A stretch of DNA of 64,000 nt from Neophaeotheca triangularis (taxonomy: Eukaryota), in NCBI GenBank assembly GCA_054600435.1, contig BAAIJX010000006.1, positions 682,001 through 746,000 on the forward strand, given 5' to 3'. The translations under genes and the position numbers were made by a program. The notes beneath the pieces are model-generated. The model worked only from the letters and a program-made list of their open reading frames with translations, did not search any database and was not told where the DNA came from. Positions 3,261 to 52,854 of this stretch are shown piece after piece; position 1 is the stretch's first letter, and each line of letters begins with the position of its first letter.

Positions 3261-3608
3261 CTACTTGCCCCTCTCAAGGAGGCCTCTGACGGTTTCGCGC
3301 ACACTGATGCCGCCGAAGAGCCACTCGTTGCTGTGTCGGCCGCCGTCGATGTAGCGGCCGCTGTTGGCACGGCTCTTGCGCTTGAGAATGGGCTCGCGGC
3401 GGGGTTTGCGGCATGTTGTTGGGGTTGTTGGGGTTGGGCTACCGCTACCGCTACCGCTGCTGCTGCTGCTGCGGGTGCGGTGTCGCTGTTGCTGCTGCTG
3501 TTGCTGCTTTTCGTCCACGAGTGTTGACGACGAGGAGTGGGTTGAGTGGGAATACATGCGGTTTTGGTGGGTGGTGGTTGTGGTTTGTTGGAGGGGGAAG
3601 ATAGACAT
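3261..3608 (-). CDS. Hypothetical 115-aa protein, poly-Q/T/S N-terminus and C-terminal GRHSNEWLFGG motif
   Basis: ATG-initiated ORF with a C/A-rich 5' leader. The ordered C-terminus YIDGGRHSNEWLFGGISVRETVRGLL resembles small Pezizomycotina hypothetical proteins (from recollection, not searched). Confidence 0.65.
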   Translation of the reverse strand: MSIFPLQQTTTTTHQNRMYSHSTHSSSSTLVDEKQQQQQQQRHRTRSSSSSGSGSGSPTPTTPTTCRKPRREPILKRKSRANSGRYIDGGRHSNEWLFGGISVRETVRGLLERGK

Positions 3609-4465
3609 TCGGCAGGGCGAGGTGCTCGCGTTGTGTGTGGTTGGTTGGTTGGATGGCTAGGGAGTTGTCGTGGGTATTCCTGGTTCGGTGTGATTTGGAG
3701 GGTTGATTACTTGATTGGCTTGTTGGTGAAGAAGGAGGGAGTGAAGGGTTTGGGGAGGGGGGTGGTCAACCTAGGTATCTTAACTCCTTACCTAGACGGA
3801 GATGCGTATCCCAGGTCTGGGCATTGAGTCAATTGACTTGTCGCTAAGAGCTACACATGACTGCCAAGTATCACGAAGAAGCCGGCGAACCGGTGGAAGC
3901 AGTCGACGCACAGTAGTAGTGGTGCGAGTCTGCCTCTGCGAGCGAACAGAACAGCAGCCCGAGGCGGACGACGACGACGACGACGCCCAGTTTGCCCATT
4001 AGGGCTGATATCGGTGGGCGTGATTGGGCGGGATAGCCTTATTAGCCTTTCTCGCCAGGGAAGCTGATCCGCTAGCGTGCGATAGTGCTTGGTAGGATCA
4101 CGCACGTGATGATGAATCTCCACGGGCATGGCATGGATAAACGGCAGCGATAGCATTGACATTTTGTGGGGAGCGCCTTGTAGGGCTGCTGGACACAGTC
4201 ACACAACACAGGACACAGCTGCGGAGAAAATGTACAGGGGCCTACGTATACATCCACATCCTTACGCAAGCCACAGCAACCTTCCAAGGTTCGCCAAGAC
4301 GGCTCCAATACTGTCCAGTGTCGTGTCGTGTGGGCGTCCAGGGCTGAAATGAATGCAACACAGGCTGTACGGCTGCCAGCAACACTACCTTACTGCTGAG
4401 AGATAGCTTTTGGTAGACATCCATGGATCCCAAGATACACCAGACTCCAAATCCCATCAGCCGCA

Positions 4466-25594: not shown

Positions 25595-27301
25595 TTACTT
25601 TTTCCCCCTACTGCTCGAGTTGATCATCTTCTTCTTGACATGCTTGGGCATCTTGTCCTTGCGCTTCTCGCGCTTTTCCTCTTTCACCAGAGCCTTGTGC
25701 GCTTTCTTCTCGTCCTTGTCCTCGAACCTCTTGCCTCGGGGCTTGTCGTCGCCGTCTCGTTTGCCCCGGCGCGCACTGGTGTCGAGCGGGTCGCCGTTCT
25801 CGTCGAGCTCATCCACTCCGCCATCGGGGTCTGAGGAAGACTCGTCGCTCACGTCGTCAGTGCCGGCTTCCTCGTCGGGTTTGGGAGCAGCATTGTTAGC
25901 GAGAAGGTCCTTGTACGGTAGCGATTCGCCCTGCCCATGCTGTATACGCTCGGCGTCGCGCTCGATGTCGTAGACCTGCTCCAGGTTCTGCGGGATGTAT
26001 TGTTGTCGGAAGACCTCGTCGTCGACCTCTCTACCCTCCTGGTCAACCCCATCCCCGTCCTCCTGTGTCCTCAGCTCTTGCAGTCGCTCCAGGGCCTCCT
26101 TCATCCCTGCTTCCTCCGTCGAACCTTCCGTCGCTGTCACGAAACCAAAAATTGTCCGATCCGGCAACGTATCGACGCCCTTGCGCCGGAAGAAATCAGA
26201 CACGTTCTTGATATCCATGCGCAAAAACTCCAGCGAGCGCGGGTGGTCGTGCTCCACGCTTTGGCTCACATCTATAACCTGCAATTCCCCGTCGTGGTAG
26301 AGGAGGTTGTACTCGGACAGATCCGCGTGCACGAGACGGCAGGTCTGATACATTTTGCGCATGTAGCCTAGCAGCTGAAGGTACACTTCGCGCCACTTGT
26401 TGGCCGCCTGCTCGGCATCCTCGCCGTTAAACTCAACGTCCCGTAGCCGGGGGGCCGGCCAGCCTTTGTTGTTTCCGAGGAATGACATGACGAGCACATG
26501 TGCTTTGAGGGACACGGGTTCTGGGCACGGGATGCCGGCGGCGTACAGGCGACGCAGGTTGCGGAACTCCTTCTCGGCCCAGACTTTAACCATGGCGCGG
26601 TTGGAGCCCTTGTTGTAGCCTTGACGGAAGCGAAACTCGCCCGAGACGTACTTGTCACGGTCTTTGAAGACGAGAATGCTGGTCTTGTATATTTTGATGG
26701 CACGGTGGAGGGCTTTAGCGGGTGCTTCGCCTTCGACTTCGGCGGGAATAGTGACGGCATGGTAGACGTTTGCTTCCTTGCCCGTGGACAGAACACCATT
26801 GATCTCGCTGACGACGTTGCGGTTGAGGAGTTGCAGCAGGATCATGCGGGTTCGCGGGTCGAGGACTTGTTCGCTTGTTGCCCGGTCGCTCTTCTCAGCA
26901 CCGCCATGACCCCTTCCCCCTAACCCAGCCTCGGCATTGTTGAGTTTCAGTTTCGCAGTATGCGCGGAGAGGGTTTTTATGTGGTCGTCGACGGCGGCGC
27001 GAGTGTTGAGTTGGGGGTTCGTTTTTCGCTTTTCTGACTCGGGGATTGTTGGGTCGTTTTGTCTGCGTTGACGGTTGAAGGATTTTGTGAGGTCGCCAGG
27101 ATTGGATGCTCCCAAGTCTGTGTCTGACAAGTCGTCCTCGAGAAAGTCGTCGTCGTCGTCGTACTCATCCTCCGGGTCAGCAGCCTCGGGGCCTGCCGGT
27201 TGCTCGTCGCTGTGACCGTTTGGTTGCTGGTAGCCCTCGTTTGGTACAAAAGTATGCGGTGGCACATGACCCTGCGCTGGACTCGCTGTGGTGTCGTCCA
27301 T
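25595..27301 (-). CDS. RIO1: RIO1 atypical Ser/Thr kinase (40S maturation), 568 aa
   Basis: DRATSEQVLDPRTR, STGKEANVY, LVHADLSEYN, IDVSQSVEHDHP and a Lys-rich C-terminus KMPKHVKKK. Confidence 0.97.
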   Translation of the reverse strand: MDDTTASPAQGHVPPHTFVPNEGYQQPNGHSDEQPAGPEAADPEDEYDDDDDFLEDDLSDTDLGASNPGDLTKSFNRQRRQNDPTIPESEKRKTNPQLNTRAAVDDHIKTLSAHTAKLKLNNAEAGLGGRGHGGAEKSDRATSEQVLDPRTRMILLQLLNRNVVSEINGVLSTGKEANVYHAVTIPAEVEGEAPAKALHRAIKIYKTSILVFKDRDKYVSGEFRFRQGYNKGSNRAMVKVWAEKEFRNLRRLYAAGIPCPEPVSLKAHVLVMSFLGNNKGWPAPRLRDVEFNGEDAEQAANKWREVYLQLLGYMRKMYQTCRLVHADLSEYNLLYHDGELQVIDVSQSVEHDHPRSLEFLRMDIKNVSDFFRRKGVDTLPDRTIFGFVTATEGSTEEAGMKEALERLQELRTQEDGDGVDQEGREVDDEVFRQQYIPQNLEQVYDIERDAERIQHGQGESLPYKDLLANNAAPKPDEEAGTDDVSDESSSDPDGGVDELDENGDPLDTSARRGKRDGDDKPRGKRFEDKDEKKAHKALVKEEKREKRKDKMPKHVKKKMINSSSRGKK

Positions 27302-27566
27302 AGTATTGCCAAAGAGTTGTAAGTGTTTTAGCGACGACCTTCGACTTGAGGGCGAAGAAACGGCAGCGATGAAATAAATTCATTTTGACGTCTACCAAGT
27401 GGGGGCCCCGCGAGGGTCCACGCTCCACTTTCGTGAGTGATGGTTCGGGAGTGCCGCGCTAGTATAGCTCAGGCCTCACCGCAACCGCCAACTCCTTTGC
27501 CACAAACACAACACATTCGCTACACTCATACTCGCCATTCATACCAGCTGATCACGCACAGGTGAT

Positions 27567-29207
27567 ATGGCGGCTCGCAGGCCGAGCTCAGTATGCCTTG
27601 CTTGCCAGCCCCGCCAGAGCATCATCAGTCGTCGGCGTCTCCGCCTCACGCGGAGCCCCATACACCGCCTGGAAGCTGTAGCCCTAAGACCGGAGGATGA
27701 TGGTTTTGTGTTTGGACGGGACATCGAGGGGAGAGCGAAGGGTGCAAAATTGCATGGAATCGATGGGGGAGGCGGCGGACCTATACGAAAACCAGCGAAA
27801 CGGCAGATGCACGACGACGTCGAGCGCGAATCACTGCTATCCTTCGAAGCCTTGTATCAAACCCGCGACGTACGCCTCAAAGTCCTACGTAGCTTGAGCA
27901 ATCCATGGCCTATGTTTCCTTCAAAACATAACAAGACGGCAGCCGAAAACCCCCTCCCAGCACCATCGCCAGCTATCACAGATATCCCCACCGCCACCTC
28001 TCCGTCCCAATCCCTCCCCCACGCCGCCCTCAAACGCCTCATCCCCCCAGAAGCCAGCGCAGGCCCAATCCCACACTCAGATTTTCGCCGCAACATCCGC
28101 CTCGCGAGCGGCGACAAAGCCATCCGCTCCGTGCTCCGCGCCCAACTTCTCCGCGCCTCGCACCCCCACGAAATACTCAAAATCGTCGCAACCGCCATGC
28201 AGCTCCCCATCCTAGCAGGCCAACTCGCGATCCTCTCCGAACCCATTATGCGCGCCCTCTACCGCTGCCGCCGCAACGTCTCCGACCCAGCCGTGCTGCG
28301 CTGCTTAACTCAGATACTGACGCGGTTCCGCTGGGCGGGCGTAGACGGTGGCCCGCAGCTCGTGCAGATGGGGCTGAAGTTCGCAGCGCGCTCGCGACAG
28401 AAGGAGGCCATGCGGGCGTATCTGCGCATGTACAAGGACATGGGCGGGGGCATGAGCTCGAATATTTTTCGATCCGTGATTGCGAAGTTCAGCATTGGAC
28501 ACAGGGGTTTGGGGGAGATTCGGAACGGGCGATGGAAGCGGCGGGATCTAATGCAGGTGCTTGTTGGGTTTGAGGAGGAAGAGCGATTGCCTGAGGAGGA
28601 GAAGTGTCATTTCGGCACTTTTTTGCAAGCGGATGATTGGCAGTATCTTCATGGATGGATTGCGGTGTTGGCGCGTTGCAAGGCGGACGAGGTTATATGG
28701 GGCGAGTGGCAGGCGTGGAAGCAATCCGAGGCCAGGCTGCGGCCCAAGCGGCTGGCATCTATCGGGAGCCATGTCACTAGCAAGGTCAGGGGGGATTATT
28801 GGTTCCTGGAGCAAATGACTTATACGGGTGACTTGCAAAGGGCGTGGCAGCTGTTTTCCGAAGCTGATCTGGAGTTCTCCAAGGTCAAGCCGAAAGTGAG
28901 AGACAAACTGTTAGATGGGGTGCAGCACGCCACTCTCTGGACTGAAGACGTCCGCGCAGCCATGGTTCAAAAGTGGGATAATGACCTTGCTAGTATCGAG
29001 GGGGCTCTGGGCGTGCGTTGGGAATCTGACGAGCGAGGAGAGGATGGCGAGGGGCGGCACGTGCTTATTGGGAATCAAGAAGAGGCGCTCGCAAAGCTGG
29101 CGGCTCAACCGGAGACGGAGTATGGCTTCCCATATGCGGACTCCCCAATCGTGTCCGAGCAGGACAAGGAATTGCACTCTGCAGCTGAGGCTGGCGAAGC
29201 GGCTTGA
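27567..29207 (+). CDS. Hypothetical 546-aa protein, probable mitochondrial presequence, helical
   Basis: Long single ORF with coding-like composition. The N-terminus is Arg/Ser-rich with a CLAC motif. No domain recognised. Confidence 0.8.
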   Translation: MAARRPSSVCLACQPRQSIISRRRLRLTRSPIHRLEAVALRPEDDGFVFGRDIEGRAKGAKLHGIDGGGGGPIRKPAKRQMHDDVERESLLSFEALYQTRDVRLKVLRSLSNPWPMFPSKHNKTAAENPLPAPSPAITDIPTATSPSQSLPHAALKRLIPPEASAGPIPHSDFRRNIRLASGDKAIRSVLRAQLLRASHPHEILKIVATAMQLPILAGQLAILSEPIMRALYRCRRNVSDPAVLRCLTQILTRFRWAGVDGGPQLVQMGLKFAARSRQKEAMRAYLRMYKDMGGGMSSNIFRSVIAKFSIGHRGLGEIRNGRWKRRDLMQVLVGFEEEERLPEEEKCHFGTFLQADDWQYLHGWIAVLARCKADEVIWGEWQAWKQSEARLRPKRLASIGSHVTSKVRGDYWFLEQMTYTGDLQRAWQLFSEADLEFSKVKPKVRDKLLDGVQHATLWTEDVRAAMVQKWDNDLASIEGALGVRWESDERGEDGEGRHVLIGNQEEALAKLAAQPETEYGFPYADSPIVSEQDKELHSAAEAGEAA

Positions 29208-29471
29208 GACGCTGCTAGAAGGTATACCTAGATTTGATGACTTACGATAAAACGACGTTATGACCCTGCCTATATGCGACAATATCCATCTTGTGTGCAA
29301 GTGTAGAAAGTAACGATCTGCCGTGTATTGATGAGAAATGCACTGGATGTAGTGCTATCCAGTGCTCGCATCTACTGTAAGCTCTTCCGGCCCTCCGCCG
29401 TTGGCTTTGACCGCGGCGGCCAGCATCCTCGACAAAACCCAGGCTAACTTCACTCAAAGCTGTAATCCGTC

Positions 29472-30690
29472 CTCATTGGCCAGGCAGCAATCCGCGCTAG
29501 TCAAAGTACGTTTTCCATATTTTGGGGCCCAGGCCTTGCTCGTCTCTGAAGAAACTCGCCGGGATGTTTTGACATTCAAGCCTCGCCAGGGACGTGACTG
29601 GCAGAGAACTTTGATAGACTTAGGCTAGTTCCTGACCGTCCCCGGCGAACATCCTGCAAGGGCTCCGCGAACCAAATGTGAAGGGTGGGTTAGGCGGCCT
29701 TCCTTTCGGTCCTCTGGTACGTGGGCACGACGTGTGAAAATGCAAACGGGCCGGGAGTCTGTTGGAGAGATAAATTGATCTGTTTTCCTCTTGTCCGACC
29801 ACGGTGCCCCAGCCTCGATGGACGAAATCTGAGCTCTCTGGCAATAAAGCCCAATCAGAATATCCCGGCGAGTTTTGCGAGAACAGGAGCCATAGGCATG
29901 CCCGAAAAGTGAAAAACAGCCATCGGCTAGCGGGGTTTCTACGAAGCCAATGACAAGAGAGCTTTGTTAGTGGGCCTAGCTCATTGGCTCATTGAGTTCC
30001 GCGCTAGTGAGCGGCTGTTTTTCAGATTTCGAGCCAGCCTTCGTGGGCTTCCTCAGTTGCTCGCCGGGATATTTTAGCTGGCCAAATCCGCCGAGGACGA
30101 GTAGAGATGTCCGAGAAGTATGGAACATCTAGCGTCCTTGGGCCTGACTCGGAGGTTCCACCTTCTTCCCGGCGCGAGCGGTTTTGATGTTCAGCCTCCT
30201 GGTGACGGACGGCCCTCATACGTCTTCCTCTCGTGGAGCTCACATCGAGCTGTTGAAACTGACCAGGGAGGTGCGAGGACAGTGTGAAGCTTCAACCATC
30301 CGCTCTCAACGCGACTGGCCAGCTCGTGGAAAGGCACTGTCCTTGTCGTCTCCGGCGATTCTGAATGATTTGAGTATCTCGGCGAGTTTGGACAGAAAGC
30401 GACAAGGAGCCAGTGCCAAGATCAAAAAAACAGTCCGCAGCTAGCGTGGTTTCTTGGGACCAATGAGAAGTGCACCGCCGGTGAGTGCCAGCCCCGACGA
30501 GTATCTGAAGGTTCTCTCGAGCAGCGCTTGAGATGACGGACATGGAGCAGGCAGTTGGTTTCAAAGGCAGAAGGCTTCCATCATTTCGCTTCTGTAGGCT
30601 TGCTGGCCCTCTGCCTTCGATCGATGGAACATTTGCATATCCTTGACGCTGGCTTGGAGACGGATCTGGGCTCCCGGCGCTTCCTCGAGC
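29472..30690 (+). repeat. Diverged tandem array (~508-nt period) of foldback units; candidate structured ncRNA or non-autonomous element
   Basis: Unit 1 is 29472-29953, unit 2 is 29980-30467, and a remnant lies at ~30600-30690. Shared blocks occur at +505 to +514 offsets (CTCATTGGC, TCCGCGCTAGT, CTCGCCGGGATRTTTT, GARTATCYCGGCGAGTTT, GCTAGCGKGGTTTCT, CCAATGA). The 5' and 3' arms of each full unit are complementary. Confidence 0.8.
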
Positions 30691-30965
30691 GCTTTCTGGT
30701 AAATTGCCGGTCGTCCTTTAGATTCGAATGCAGTCGTCTTGCTCTTCACACCTGAACCCCTCGCTAGGAGTGGTGTATAGCTCGCCCAGTATGTGAAAAG
30801 AATTGATAGATTGGTGTGGCCGTTCTCAGGCGACGAAGAAAGGCCCTCCATACGCTTGAGCGTTGAAGTACATTTCAAGACAGTCATCGTCGGCTACGGC
30901 CTCAGCAAGTATAAGAGTCGCGCTACCAACAAGCGCCCCCATGTCCGGCCTTCAGATACCTCCAA

Positions 30966-32639
30966 CTACCGCTCAATCTCCGCGCTCCCCCCTTCGCGGG
31001 CCATCTCCTCCCCTTCTCCCTCCGCTCCTTCTCCCTCCGCTCCTTCTCCCTCCGCTCCTTCTCCATTCTCATCCCCAACAAGCCCAATCACCCACCTTCT
31101 CCCCTCCCTCCCCAACTCCGGCCATAGATCCCTAGGCAAGAACCTCCCAGCTTCCTCAACAAACTCCTCCCGCCTCTCGCGATCACCCTCCCACAACCTC
31201 TCCAGCTCCATCCGGGCCCGGCTCGCGACCTTTTCCATCTGTGCCTCCACAGCTTTCCTCCGCTCGACCTCCTTCAGCAGCGCTTTGTATGAAGCGCCAA
31301 AATGGGCGTAAAAAGCCGTGAGCTCGGAGAGCTGGGTAGATTTCTCTTGCATGCCGGTCGTGAGGGAGACGACCGTGGAGTGGAAAGTGGAGGTGGTGAT
31401 GAGGATGTCGGGGAGCCTCGAGCGCAGGGGTTGCAGGTGTGTAATTAGGAGGCGCTGGAGCTGAGAACGTGTGTTGCGCGCTCGGAGCGCGTGGGTCTCG
31501 AGCAGCGTGAAGTTTTCTTCCAGAGAGTCCGCGAGGTCGCGGAGCTCGGTCACGACGTCTTCGAGCTCGGTGGCGTCATTTTCGAGTACGGAGAGCATTT
31601 CGCTTCGCTCTTCGTGGGAGATCGGCGCCGGGTGTTTGTTTTCAGCGTAGAGGCTGCTCTCGCCATCGCCAGCTTTGGCTCCCGAGCGGGTCAGGGCTCC
31701 TTGTTCTTGTTCGCGTTGTATGGCGGCTTTGGCTGCTTCACCACCGCCTTCGGTGTGTTTGAGGGCTGTTACGCAGAGATCGTGGTGGGAGATGAGGGAA
31801 TGTAGGAGGGAAGCGGTCTCGGCGGCTTGAGACTCGAGAGTGCGGAAGACGCCAGGGAGAGAGGGGGGTTGGGCGGCGCGGTTGCGGGTCGAGGGGAGCG
31901 TGGGGTTGCTATCGTCGGAGTTGTAGGCTTCGTCGGTTGGGGGTGCTGGACGACTAGTCTTATGTAGAACTTGCTCGATTGCTTGTGTGGTGTCTGATAG
32001 AGACGTTAGAGCGGTATTCAATATAGATTTGGAGTCTTGGAAAGTGTCGAGTAGGACGCGCAGCTCGCCCAACAGGTCTGTATGCGTAGAGTCGTCGATG
32101 AAGTCGTAGAGATTCTTTGGCTCGTCTGATGCCGCTTCGTCTGGCTCACCACTCTCTTGCATCGACTCCATGTCATTTCGACCGAGGTGTCTGTCTCTCT
32201 CAGAGCCTTTGGTGTGCAAGGCGGCATCCACAACAACTTTCCTCAGTCCGTCCAGAGTCTTTTCCAGCCTTACGTGTTTTCCGTCAAGCTCCGCGATCAT
32301 CTTCTCAAGGTCGTGATCCGCCTCGTCCCCAGCCTCAGTAACACCATCTCTTACCGCGTTGAGAGTGTCGACTTGCCGTGCGATGCCTCTGTGGGCACTC
32401 ACATTTTGCGCATTCAAGATGGCGACTTCTTCAATTAAACGTCGCGAGCTCGTTACTATCTCGTTGGCTCGTAGAACTAGGTTTGTCGAGCTGAGAGAGC
32501 GTTTTGCGGCGACAAAATGCACGACTAGACGCTCCAGAGTGGGTGGGCCATGGACACTGGCTTCAGGTGATTGCGATGGAGAAGGGGATTCAGAGCGCTC
32601 GGATGAGCTGTCTGATGCCGAGGAGCTGACTGTAGCCAT
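30966..32639 (-). CDS. ATG17: Autophagy scaffold Atg17, 557 aa
   Basis: LVVHFVAAKRSLSS...RANEIV N-terminus, KNLYDFIDD, LISHHDLCVTALKHTEGG, and C-terminal GRFLPRDLWP. Coiled-coil character. Confidence 0.88.
   Translation of the reverse strand: MATVSSSASDSSSERSESPSPSQSPEASVHGPPTLERLVVHFVAAKRSLSSTNLVLRANEIVTSSRRLIEEVAILNAQNVSAHRGIARQVDTLNAVRDGVTEAGDEADHDLEKMIAELDGKHVRLEKTLDGLRKVVVDAALHTKGSERDRHLGRNDMESMQESGEPDEAASDEPKNLYDFIDDSTHTDLLGELRVLLDTFQDSKSILNTALTSLSDTTQAIEQVLHKTSRPAPPTDEAYNSDDSNPTLPSTRNRAAQPPSLPGVFRTLESQAAETASLLHSLISHHDLCVTALKHTEGGGEAAKAAIQREQEQGALTRSGAKAGDGESSLYAENKHPAPISHEERSEMLSVLENDATELEDVVTELRDLADSLEENFTLLETHALRARNTRSQLQRLLITHLQPLRSRLPDILITTSTFHSTVVSLTTGMQEKSTQLSELTAFYAHFGASYKALLKEVERRKAVEAQMEKVASRARMELERLWEGDRERREEFVEEAGRFLPRDLWPELGREGRRWVIGLVGDENGEGAEGEGAEGEGAEGEGEEMAREGGSAEIER
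31012..31064. repeat. 15-bp tandem repeat x3.5 encoding GEGAE in the Atg17 tail
   Basis: (CCTTCTCCCTCCGCT)3 followed by CCTTCTCC. Confidence 0.9.
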
Positions 32640-49494: not shown

Positions 49495-51566
49495 AAGACT
49501 CTACTTGGCCCACTCACCGCAAGCAGCCGAACATCTCACACGCGACAAGGCATGTAATCCACGTCTAGGTAACCAGTGCAGGTATCCGCTGCACTTCGCC
49601 TCGACATTCCGACGAGACATCTCACAAGGTCACGATTCACGATCTACCTGATACGTCCGAGGTAAAGGGTTCATGTATCTATCCATTTGCCAAAGCTGTA
49701 AGGCTAGATGAAGCCCTACAAGCAAGTACTGTATATACAGCAGTGGATTGATGCACTGCTGAGCCTCGGTAGACGGTAGCATCTCATCTCATCTCATCTC
49801 ATCTAATACCCATCAAACATCAAACGCCTGTGCGAGTGCGTGTGCGATGCTGTGACATAGCTACAGCACCTACCTTAGGTAGCTTCCATCAAGTGCGACT
49901 CTTCTCATGCAGGTACGGAATCTCATCTGATCGTATATAGAAGGTAACCGACCAGGTCACTACCCGGGCCGATCGACCACTGTCACGGGACCGTGTCCCA
50001 TCCATGTCCCATACTACATGCGTCGTCCCAGCCTCTCGGGTTCACAACTAATAAGGTACCCCCGATAGCGATCAGCCCTAGATCTGGAATCTGCTATCAA
50101 AACGACAAGGATACCAAAACACCCCTGCGGCGGAACCCGCTGGATCAGGTGTACGATACATCGCTTAGATGCATTGCGCAGGTAATCATTCATGAGCTAC
50201 CTTAGCATCCAGCCGTTCAACCAACGACGGTGCTTCGATCTTCCCGGCTCCCTCTCGATCGAAGCATGACGGCGGCGCCCTGTGTTCGCAGCACGATACC
50301 GACCGCCTGCACACCCCAGATTGCAACTTGCTGGGTCCCAAGTGTCGCTCGAGCACGAAGGATCCGATCAGCGCTGCCTTGCTGACCCCAGCCTGGCAGC
50401 CAGCCCCTGTCCCCAACTTACCCAGCAGCAGCAGCCCCAACAATTCCAGTCCAAGTAGACCCTTTCAAAACGATCGTCCAAATCAACCGACCGACAAGAG
50501 ATCTGCTCGAATCTCTTACCGCTCGAGACGAGTTTCATCTCAACGTGCACAGTCCAGTCCACGCTTGACTCGCCATAGAACCAACCACTCGCCATCAAGG
50601 ACCGCCTCGAAACTCCTCGGTCTTCACTCTCTCGGAAACAAATCCGCCTCCGCCCATGCCTCTTGTGCTGCACACTGGAGGCGAGCATACCTCTTACAAT
50701 AGTACTTCCAAAAGGGCAACGGAAAAGCCCCGCACGCTCTCTCTCTCTGTCCAGAAAGCGGCGCCCAAACTCCCCCCTCCATCACGATGCCCTTCCCACC
50801 TCGTTAGGCCTCGTCGCCGGAACTTTTGTGACAGATGCTCACACGAACGACAGCCCTAAAGCCAACACCCGCCTGCCTCCCCGGCGAGATGAAAGTCCCC
50901 CCCTTGGTCTCCAAGCTAAAACACCCAAAGTCGGCCGGCACGATGCCCTCCACTTCCCCTTCCCCCAATTTCTCACCTCCCCTCCCCTCCTCGAAATGCC
51001 CTCGCTTAGAACCCAAGTAAGCAGACAACGCGCATAGGTAGTAATATCCCAGCCCAAGCCAAGCCAAGCCAACCAGCGACAGATAACTACCAGATAGCGC
51101 TGAGCAAAGCAGAGCGCCTCGTCCAGCAAGCCAGCCAGCCAGCCAGCCAGCGCTCGCCCTAAAACTGGGGGAAAATTCCTCCTCTTCACTGAGTCTGCAA
51201 GCGCGGCCGCCGCCGCTGTAACAGCAGAAAAGTTGAAATGCGTCGAACGGTCTGCGCGCTGGAGCTGCCGAGTCCGAGCCTCAGGTCGTTTGGCGAGGAA
51301 GCGGCATGGCTCTAGCGGTGCGGTTGGGTAGGGCTGTTTTCTTTTTTTTTCTCCTTTTTTTTTTTTTTTGGCGGGCAGGCTCTACAGAGCTGGAGCTGAA
51401 GATGTGCGAAAGTTCCATGGTGGGGCTTGCGGTGGGTTGTTTTGGTGATACCCATGTCACGATCTATATTTTGGTTTTGGTTTTAGTGGGGGAGGGGGGT
51501 TTCTTTAATGTCGGAGCCTGTGGGCAAGGGGTTGGCATCTTTTCTTGCTTGTTTTACTTATCTCCC

Positions 51567-51625
51567 TACTTACTTACTTACCTACCTACCTACCTACCTA
51601 CCTACCTACCTACCTACCTACCTAC
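51567..51625. repeat. Compound (TACT)3(TACC)11 microsatellite
   Basis: Direct reading. An imperfect (CATC)n run follows at ~51788-51823. Confidence 0.95.
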
Positions 51626-52854
51626 ACATCTACAAAACAGAGACAGGGGACACACCTATGCCAGTAGAGTGTAGACTAATCGATTGTATACATTTCCGGC
51701 CAGTTTGCTCGGTCGAGTAACTACTACTGCGTGGGTAGCCGATACGTATCGTAACTCCAAGGTACGGGAGTTCGAGAGGCGGAGGATCCATCCATTCATC
51801 CATCCATCCATCCATCCATCCATCCCCCATCCTCTGATGTTTTTAGATAGAAAATCATTTGCCGACTCGTCGAGGCTCTCGCGGGAATCCCGTAACAACC
51901 TGTCCTGCTTCCCCCATTTCCCCCTTTGGCAGCTAGCTATCCTCTCCCCTTGCAGTCTTTTGACCTATCAACGTACAGACTCCACCAAAGAATAAAGAAG
52001 GGAAACAAAAACACAACCAACATACCATCACAACAGGAAGAGAGTAGCATACGAAAAAATCCCGCTAGAAGCAAAAAACAAAAAGAGGGTCACAGCAGTA
52101 CACAGAATCTAATAGACCTAAGATAACACACCCAAGTAGTCCTAACCCCCCTCCCATTCATCATCAAAATCTCAGCACCAAGAAGAAAGAAAACACGCAA
52201 AAGGCCGTTACTCGTACAAAAAAAGGGTAATTCGTAAAACCCTCCAAACACAATGTTGTTCATCGTCTGAAATTTTCCCTCGTCGCAGAGTTAGGGAAAC
52301 TCTGTAGATGGTCTCAGCCCCAGCACAATCGATTCGTCCGTTTATTACATCCATAGCATCGTTGCCCGAGGACTTTCTTGTTGCCTTTTGAGCAGAGAGA
52401 GGGAGAGAGACAGAGAAGAGGAACCTCGCTTCCTCTTTTTTTTTTCTTCTTCTCGTCCAACCCCCGATTCCCCGTCATGACACCGTGAGAACGCTCGAAA
52501 GGGGAAGTGCGCACGTCTCGAGAAGTGAAGAAAAACGGAGAAGCACGCCGTGTCCGTCATGTGCGCTGCGAGGAGAGCGGCGGCCGCTTCTAGTGCCGTC
52601 GAAAGCAGCAGTTTGGCGTTCAAGACTGCGGTGTCCCAAACGCGACACAAGCAAAGCGAGACAATGCTCGGTGAAATGCAAGCACGACCGAAAAAAAAGA
52701 GAGAAAAAAAAAAAAGAAAAGAGAAGAAAAAAGAAGAGAAAAAAACCCCCCAACAACGCGAGCGCGTGCCTCTGCAAAACAGGCTCCAACCAAACCAAAC
52801 CGTGGTGAAAATCAAGGCCCCCCTCCCCCCGGCTTCCCCTTTCATAGTCTCCGC

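What the first reader, a model, noticed from the sequence alone, without database searches (positions are those of the whole stretch)
29472..30467. Tandem pair of diverged ~490-nt foldback units with strand-asymmetric G-U-preserved helices: candidate novel structured RNA or element
Seen: the 1.75-kb gap between convergent genes has no credible ORF and holds two homologous units about 508 nt apart. Unit 1 (29472-29953) pairs 29473-29480/29946-29953, 29492-29501/29926-29935 and a 22-bp helix 29551-29572/29855-29876 (3 G-U, no mismatch). Unit 2 (29980-30467) pairs 29980-29987/30460-30467, 29999-30008/30440-30449, 30011-30022/30426-30438 and a 16-bp helix 30059-30074/30372-30387 (4 G-U, no mismatch). 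Differences between the copies in the main helix (GAATATCCCGGCGAGTTT vs GAGTATCTCGGCGAGTTT; GGGATG vs GGGATA) remain pairable on the + strand but would be A-C mismatches on the - strand. This points to selection on an RNA rather than a DNA cruciform. The ~290-nt interiors are more diverged but share islands (CGCC..GGACG, CCCGGCG, CCAGC(C)TCG(A)TGGA) and internal hairpins. By eye it matches no rRNA, tRNA, snRNA, SRP or RNase P/MRP motif, and I see no TSD. Inference: a duplicated unknown ncRNA, a small-RNA (milRNA) precursor cluster, a structured 3'UTR, or an old MITE/foldback element.
Basis: partly seen in the sequence, partly recalled or inferred. Interest (0 to 1): 0.85.

Follow-up and report, generated by a model that had tools for sequence, protein, structure and literature searches.

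The report
Four-armed inverted-repeat DNA relic
The gap downstream of a fungal ATG17 gene holds four diverged copies of a ~125-base module in alternating orientation, which looks like an old inverted-repeat DNA element and shows no sign of being a strand-specific structured RNA.

Summary
What is repeated is four ~125-nt arms in the order forward, reverse, forward, reverse (29472-29594, 29834-29954, 29980-30100, 30347-30467).

- **Arms:** All arm pairs are about equally alike, at 55-60% identity. Short blocks are invariant in all four: TCATTGG, CGCTAG, GTTTT and CTCGCCG.
- **Interiors:** The two ~240-nt interiors are not alignable with each other (z about 0).
- **RNA argument fails:**
  - Both strands fold equally well (unit z -3.8/-3.7 and -3.5/-3.35).
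  - Over the whole arms, G-U-compatible transitions number 23 on the + strand and 28 on the - strand.
  - Arms match their own unit's partner no better than the other unit's (137 against 137 identical columns).
  - The full 1-kb fold pairs the two inner arms with each other, and likewise the two outer arms.
- **Searches:** There is no Rfam match and no other copy in the 64 kb. Neither the arms nor a comparable repeat array turned up in 34 distant ATG17 loci. Expression and genome-wide copy number could not be tested.

My best reading, at about 0.45, is a relic of non-autonomous inverted-repeat transposon(s) whose conserved blocks are protein-binding sites. No target-site duplication was found, so membership is unproven. 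Interest is modest.

The parts
29472..29594 (+). Arm A1_L (module in forward orientation)
   Evidence: nhmmer hit of the 4-arm profile, 102 bits (matches by construction). Alignment A3.
29595..29833 (.). Interior 1 (~239 nt). It is not alignable with interior 2. It holds one inverted copy of the motif, read as CCCGGCG at 29641-29647.
29834..29954 (-). Arm A1_R (module in reverse orientation)
   Evidence: nhmmer 101.8 bits; alignment A3
29955..29979 (.). Short spacer between the back-to-back inner arms. It forms the loop of the central hairpin in the 1-kb fold.
29980..30100 (+). Arm A2_L (forward)
   Evidence: nhmmer 96 bits; alignment A3
30101..30346 (.). Interior 2 (~246 nt). It is not alignable with interior 1. 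It holds an inverted motif copy, TCCCGGCG at 30167-30174.
30347..30467 (-). Arm A2_R (reverse)
   Evidence: nhmmer 101.1 bits; alignment A3
30672..30679 (-). Extra copy of the 8-mer CGCCGGGA, 205 nt beyond the array
27567..29207 (+). Flanking gene: a 546-aa ORF with no Pfam family. An atlas lead points to a mitochondrial PPR / ATPase-expression-protein-like protein.
30966..32639 (-). Flanking gene ATG17, convergent with the 546-aa ORF
   Evidence: Pfam PF04108, E 1.8e-73

Best explanation
The region is a DNA-level repeat. It is most likely the relic of one or two non-autonomous transposable elements of the terminal-inverted-repeat type (MITE-like, ~480 bp each, with ~125-bp arms) lying side by side in an enlarged gap between two convergent genes.

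- **What the blocks are (inferred):** The invariant blocks and the repeated 8-mer CGCCGGGA would be the sites that a transposase, or another sequence-specific DNA-binding protein, recognised. That would explain why they are kept as sequence in both orientations, while the rest of the arms has drifted to about 46% identity and the interiors are unrelated.
- **What the fold is (inferred):** The ability to fold back is a by-product of the inverted arms, not a selected RNA structure.
- **Shown here:** four homologous arms, block conservation, unrelated interiors, strand symmetry, and no unit-specific compensation.
- **Inferred only:** mobility, a transposase, and the age of the element.
For: - **Four homologous arms in alternating orientation**.
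- **Near-equal pairwise identity:** 0.55-0.60 over 124 columns.
- **Strong rate heterogeneity:**
  - 42 of 124 columns are invariant, and 25 of them lie in runs of 5 or more.
  - None of 20,000 column permutations reaches that figure.
  - Identity outside the blocks is 0.44-0.49, against 0.255 at random.
- **Unrelated interiors** of similar length.
- **Motif enrichment:**
  - The 8-mer CGCCGGGA occurs 5 times in 29400-30750 and once in the other 62.6 kb.
  - One inverted copy of its 7-mer core lies in each interior.
  - Degenerate second copies lie about 27 nt further into each arm.
  - From my own knowledge, this resembles the subterminal binding-site repeats of DNA transposons.
- **Symmetric between strands:** fold z is -3.77/-3.69, -3.49/-3.35 and -7.20/-7.39 for the + and - strands.
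- **Lineage-specific as far as could be seen:**
  - None of 34 ATG17 loci from metagenomes holds an arm relative (best E 1.6).
  - None of 23 loci checked has a comparable repeat pair downstream of ATG17.
- **Precedent in a related fungus:** passages of PMC4522978 describe Zymoseptoria MITE families that share TIR and TSD but have different internal sequences. They also report that MITEs prevail in gene-rich regions.
- **No coding capacity**.
- **No RIP signature:** GC is 0.544, against 0.545 for the window. Within units there are 51 transitions against 55 transversions.
Against: - **No target-site duplication:** the best flanking direct repeats are 2-3 nt, which is the mode of the null distribution.
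- **No further copy** in the 64-kb window (next best nhmmer hit E 0.042).
- **Dispersal untested:** no whole genome is held, so dispersed copies, the defining trait, could not be checked.
- **Block conservation is awkward for a dead element:** if the two units arose by duplication in place, a dead element would not keep perfect blocks while the rest decays. The transposon reading therefore needs either two separate insertions of diverged family members or some continuing constraint.
- **Unexplained coincidences:** the near-equal unit lengths (about 482 and 487 nt) and the adjacency.
- **No transposase or known TIR family** was identified.
Confidence: 0.45

Rival explanations
1. A host-maintained array of four composite protein-binding DNA modules. 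Each module would carry a CCAAT-containing block, CGCTAG, a T-run and CTCGCCGGGAT, plus extra CGCCGGGA sites. It would act on DNA, for example as a boundary element, a recombination or replication-related site, or promoters of unannotated transcripts.
For: - The blocks are invariant as sequence in all four arms, in both orientations, with fixed spacing, while the flanking columns have drifted.
- CGCCGGGA sites form a homotypic cluster, about 150-fold enriched.
- This is the simplest way to explain conservation in place if the units are an old local duplication.
Against: - The array lies between two 3' ends, with no gene to regulate and no ORF.
- It was not found next to ATG17 in 34 other fungal loci, although those are distant at 28-47% ATG17 identity.
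- No known binding protein was identified. A full-text search for the motifs returned only unrelated papers.
Confidence: 0.2
2. A locus for hairpin RNA. Transcripts through the array would fold into long imperfect hairpins and be processed into small RNAs (milRNA or siRNA), or act as a structured 3' UTR or terminator element for the convergent genes.
For: - Folds are significantly more stable than shuffles: z -3.5 to -3.8 for the units and -7.2 for the central 283-nt hairpin.
- There are helices of 22 and 16 bp without mismatch.
- Two compensatory changes occur among the 46 long-range pairs.
Against: - The same stability is seen on the - strand.
- There is no strand bias in G-U against A-C (23 against 28).
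- Arms are no more complementary within a unit than across units, both for identical columns and with G-U counted:

| Count | Within unit | Across units |
|---|---|---|
| Identical columns | 137 | 137 |
| + strand, G-U counted | 160 | 160 |
| - strand, G-U counted | 165 | 164 |

- Arms are only 55-57% complementary overall, so no long perfect duplex exists.
- There is no Rfam match at E up to 10.
- Single arms have no conserved fold of their own.
Confidence: 0.15
3. A purely local, non-mobile rearrangement: an inverted duplication followed by a tandem duplication, now decaying neutrally. The conserved blocks would reflect uneven mutation or chance.
For: - Same-side arms are marginally the most alike (L-L 0.59, R-R 0.60, against L-R 0.55-0.57).
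- Unit lengths are nearly equal.
- There is no TSD.
Against: - Neutral decay does not predict 25 invariant columns in runs of 5 or more (0 of 20,000 permutations).
- It also does not predict arms at 46% identity outside the blocks next to interiors with no similarity at all.
Confidence: 0.12

Closest known systems
MITEs / non-autonomous TIR DNA transposons of Dothideomycetes (for example the Zymoseptoria tritici MITE families in PMC4522978; passages read)
   Same: - Small size (~480 bp) and no coding capacity.
- Inverted arms around an unrelated interior.
- Families that share ends but differ inside are described for Zymoseptoria.
- Located in a gene-rich region.
- Too short or too diverged to carry a RIP signature.
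   Different: - No TSD.
- No second locus could be shown.
- The arms are long (~125 nt), only 55-57% alike and mosaic: perfect blocks within drifted sequence.
- Two units sit head to tail.
DNA transposons with long TIRs and subterminal binding-site repeats (Mutator-like, CACTA/En-Spm-like, hAT-like; recalled, not tested)
   Same: - Arm length is of the order of 100 nt or more.
- A short motif is repeated in direct and inverted orientation near the ends.
   Different: - No transposase gene, no family-typical terminal sequence and no TSD length could be matched.
- No sequence library of such elements was available to test against.
Fungal hairpin small-RNA (milRNA-type) loci (PMC9757828 and others; search listing only)
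   Same: An intergenic inverted repeat that can fold into a hairpin.
   Different: - The arms are far from a continuous duplex.
- No strandedness and no expression data.
- Not tested with small-RNA reads.

Membership tests
MITE / non-autonomous TIR transposon | Terminal inverted repeats | tested here: met
   Arms pair as inverted repeats. They are imperfect, at 55-57% identity with perfect blocks.
MITE / non-autonomous TIR transposon | Target-site duplication flanking the element | tested here: not met
   The best direct repeats are 2-3 nt for unit 1, unit 2, the outer pair and the central pair, the same as the null mode. Decay with age could have erased one.
MITE / non-autonomous TIR transposon | Several dispersed copies in the genome | not testable with these tools
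   No whole genome is held. In the 64-kb window there is no copy beyond the four arms.
MITE / non-autonomous TIR transposon | Small, non-coding | tested here: met
   Units are about 482 and 487 nt. None of 12 gap ORFs has a Pfam family above threshold.
Foldback (FB-type) element | Long inverted arms built of tandem subrepeats | tested here: not met
   The repeat finder lists no tandem subrepeats within the arms. Only a degenerate second motif copy lies about 27 nt away. Tandem Repeats Finder was not run.
Known structured RNA family (Rfam) | Match to a covariance model | tested here: not met
   0 matches at E up to 10 in 29000-31200. 0 at gathering score in the whole window. No tRNA found by ARAGORN.
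Novel structured RNA | Helices supported by compensatory change and strand specificity | tested here: not met
   - Of the 46 long-range pairs, 39 are invariant, 5 changed on one side and 2 are compensatory.
- Identical columns are 137 within units and 137 across units.
- z-scores are equal on both strands.
- Only two paralogous units were available, so power is low.
Novel structured RNA / hairpin small-RNA locus | Transcription and processing | not testable with these tools
   No usable RNA data for this organism.

The most novel reading that the evidence does not exclude
The array is not junk. It would be a host-retained set of four orientation-independent, ~125-bp composite binding modules with extra CGCCGGGA sites, kept in place by selection in the gap between two convergent genes. 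It could act as a chromatin boundary, a recombination or replication element, or a pair of convergent promoters that make double-stranded RNA from the two interiors. The perfect blocks amid drifted sequence, in both orientations, are what such a reading predicts.
Probability: 0.15. Interest if true: 0.6.

Novelty: new member of a known kind. Interest (0 to 1): 0.3.

Why it matters
If it is a transposon relic, it is an ordinary piece of fungal genome history. Its main value is as a caution: G-U-preserving differences picked out of the best helices do not show RNA selection. If the conserved blocks prove to be maintained in place, they would define a new cis-acting DNA module and the recognition site of an unknown binding protein in a poorly sampled Dothideomycete lineage.

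Tried and rejected
- **Own genome:** the search was not possible because no genome is held.
- **Public RNA runs:**
  - Only two marine metatranscriptome runs (one study) hold a small share of the 5.2-kb stretch.
  - When laid, their contigs cover only pieces of the two flanking genes and a low-complexity repeat.
  - This says nothing about transcription of the array.
- **Metagenome scan:** a scan for the three-block arm pattern gave 0 matches.
- **Prokaryote and virus scans:**
  - A two-block pattern gave 119 or more hits in prokaryote genomes and 75 in viral contigs.
  - These are chance matches. Only 1 of the 194 fetched loci scored at all with the arm profile, at 17.9 bits against about 100 for the real arms.
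- **Larger metagenome contigs:** searching the contigs behind five ATG17 loci was not possible.
- **Earlier findings of this scan:** four look-ups by place, relatives, sequence and words returned nothing.
- **Literature search for the motifs:** it returned only unrelated primer or oligo hits.
- **Arms extending outward:** I looked for about 20 more nt with a shared CACT-containing end. The four flanks do not align convincingly, so I dropped the idea.
- **Each arm as its own small RNA:** the consensus folds are only -8.0 and -3.6 kcal/mol, so this was rejected.
- **Hidden protein gene in the gap:** rejected.
- **RIP-mutated duplicate:** rejected.

Full report
**Context.** The window comes from a Dothideomycete fungus. 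The ORF 30966-32639 (-) is ATG17 (PF04108, E 1.8e-73). Its nearest relatives are one unnamed protein at 70% identity, then Zymoseptoria, Friedmanniomyces and similar genera at about 45%. The convergent ORF 27567-29207 (+) has no Pfam family. A language-model look-up gives only a lead, to mitochondrial PPR / ATPase-expression-type proteins. The 1.76-kb gap between them contains no credible ORF: none of 12 ORFs of 50 aa or more reaches a Pfam threshold. No whole genome is held for this window.

- The coordinates and helices are as described. The 22-bp helix in unit 1 has 3 G-U and the 16-bp helix in unit 2 has 4 G-U, neither with a mismatch.
- What is repeated is not a ~490-nt unit. It is a ~125-nt arm present four times in alternating orientation: A1_L 29472-29594 (+), A1_R 29834-29954 (-), A2_L 29980-30100 (+) and A2_R 30347-30467 (-).
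- Local alignment of the six arm pairs gives z of 13.2, 9.0, 5.1, 9.5, 12.6 and 3.5 against 300 dinucleotide shuffles. Four of the six exceed every shuffle. The other two do not, including unit 2's own pair.
- The two-block pattern TCATTGG-N(8-16)-CCNCGCTAG occurs exactly four times in 64 kb, against none in 100 shuffles.
- A profile of the arms finds nothing else in the window (next best E 0.042).
- Apart from low-complexity runs, this is the only complex inverted repeat in the window.

**Anatomy.**
- All six arm pairs are about equally alike, at 0.55-0.60 over 124 columns.
- Conservation is mosaic:
  - 42 of 124 columns are invariant in all four arms.
  - 25 of them lie in runs of 5-7 (TCATTGG, CGCTAG, GTTTT, CTCGCCG).
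  - None of 20,000 column permutations reaches that figure.
  - Outside these blocks the identity is 0.44-0.49, against 0.255 at random.
- The two interiors (about 239 and 246 nt) show no similarity to each other in either orientation, nor to their own reverse complements (z -0.1, -0.9, 0.3, 1.2).
- The 8-mer CGCCGGGA occurs five times in 29400-30750 and once in the remaining 62.6 kb:
  - Three copies are at the homologous arm position.
  - One is inverted in interior 2, and interior 1 has the 7-mer core at a similar place.
  - One lies 205 nt beyond the array.
  - Each arm also carries a degenerate second copy about 27 nt further in.
- GC content equals that of the window (0.544 against 0.545).
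- Transitions do not dominate (51 against 55 transversions within units), so there is no RIP signature.

**Testing the RNA inference.**
- MFE z-scores are the same on both strands:

| Fold | + strand | - strand |
|---|---|---|
| Unit 1 | -3.77 | -3.69 |
| Unit 2 | -3.49 | -3.35 |
| Central 283-nt hairpin (A1_R with A2_L) | -7.20 | -7.39 |

- The consensus fold of the two units is -81.3 kcal/mol on the + strand and -70.1 on the - strand, with covariation terms of -14.25 and -13.0.
  - The + strand advantage comes from the extension of one helix.
  - Most pairs counted as changed on both sides lie in the unalignable interiors and mean nothing.
- Of the 46 long-range arm-arm pairs, 39 are identical in both units, 5 differ on one side and 2 are compensatory.
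- Counting every transition between partner arms gives 23 that would be G-U on the + strand and 28 on the - strand.
That helix was delimited by allowing G-U on the + strand.
  - By my count from the positions listed, columns 85-112 hold 10 plus against 4 minus, while the outer columns hold 11 plus against 18 minus.
  - Some of these differences are shared by both units, so they are not independent events.
- Arms are no more complementary to their own unit's partner than to the other unit's:

| Count | Within unit | Across units |
|---|---|---|
| Identical columns | 69+68 = 137 | 70+67 = 137 |
| + strand, G-U counted | 160 | 160 |
| - strand, G-U counted | 165 | 164 |

- Single arms have no conserved fold of their own.
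- Rfam gives nothing at E up to 10 in the region, nothing at gathering score in the window, and there is no tRNA.

So the foldback potential follows from the inverted arms. Nothing here shows selection on an RNA. With only two paralogous units, the test has limited power.

**Relatives elsewhere.**
- A three-block arm pattern found nothing in the metagenome contigs.
- Thirty-four ATG17 loci from metagenomes (28-47% identity) hold no arm relative (best E 1.6).
- In the 23 of those loci with enough downstream DNA, none has a comparable repeat pair.
- These relatives are distant, so this shows only that the array is not an ancient feature of the ATG17 neighbourhood.
- In 6 of the 34 loci RIO1 follows ATG17 directly. 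In the window, the 546-aa gene and the array lie between them.

**What it most likely is.** The constraint acts on sequence blocks in both orientations, not on pairing. That points to recognition of double-stranded DNA by a protein. Inverted arms of about 125 nt, a short motif repeated in direct and inverted orientation, unrelated interiors, small size and no coding capacity together fit a non-autonomous TIR transposon best.
- Passages of PMC4522978 describe MITE families in Zymoseptoria that share ends but differ inside and that sit in gene-rich regions.
- Two diverged family members inserted side by side would explain the conserved blocks without any selection in place.
- Against this reading:
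  - No TSD is visible; the 2-3 nt matches equal the null mode.
  - There is no second locus in the window, and genome-wide copies could not be tested.
  - The near-equal unit lengths and the adjacency are unexplained.
- I put this reading at about 0.45.

**Rivals.** A host-kept array of binding modules is at 0.2, a hairpin-RNA locus at 0.15, and a purely local duplication decaying neutrally at about 0.12.

**Verdict.** The repeat structure is real and accurately located. The headline inference of a strand-specific structured RNA is not supported. The likeliest reading is an ordinary kind of element whose membership remains unproven. The perfectly kept blocks are the one feature worth a follow-up once a whole genome and RNA data are at hand.

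Noticed in passing
window 25595-32639; loci L011, L023, L025, L027, L028, L029: In 6 of 34 fungal ATG17 loci the RIO1 kinase gene lies directly after ATG17. In the window a 546-aa gene without a Pfam family (PPR / ATPase-expression-like by an atlas lead) and the repeat array sit between ATG17 and RIO1. This suggests a lineage-specific rearrangement or insertion.
   Followed up: partly
window 31005-31064: A 15-nt tandem repeat (3-4 copies) lies inside the 3' end of the ATG17 coding region. The low-complexity matches of metatranscriptome contigs fall here.
   Followed up: no
L022 about 3530-4310: A near-perfect inverted repeat (95 nt, 99%) with arms about 590 nt apart lies downstream of ATG17 in another fungal metagenome contig. 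It looks like a young TIR element unrelated to the arms studied here.
   Followed up: no
window 51309-51369 / 52705-52765 and 51555-51634: Long poly-T and poly-A tracts face each other about 1.3 kb apart, beside a TACC/TACT microsatellite.
   Followed up: no
window 27772-28007, 31554-32140: Contigs from two marine metatranscriptome runs match pieces of the flanking genes at 99% or more. This fungus or a very close strain therefore occurs in marine samples. The shares are small and come from one study only.
   Followed up: no
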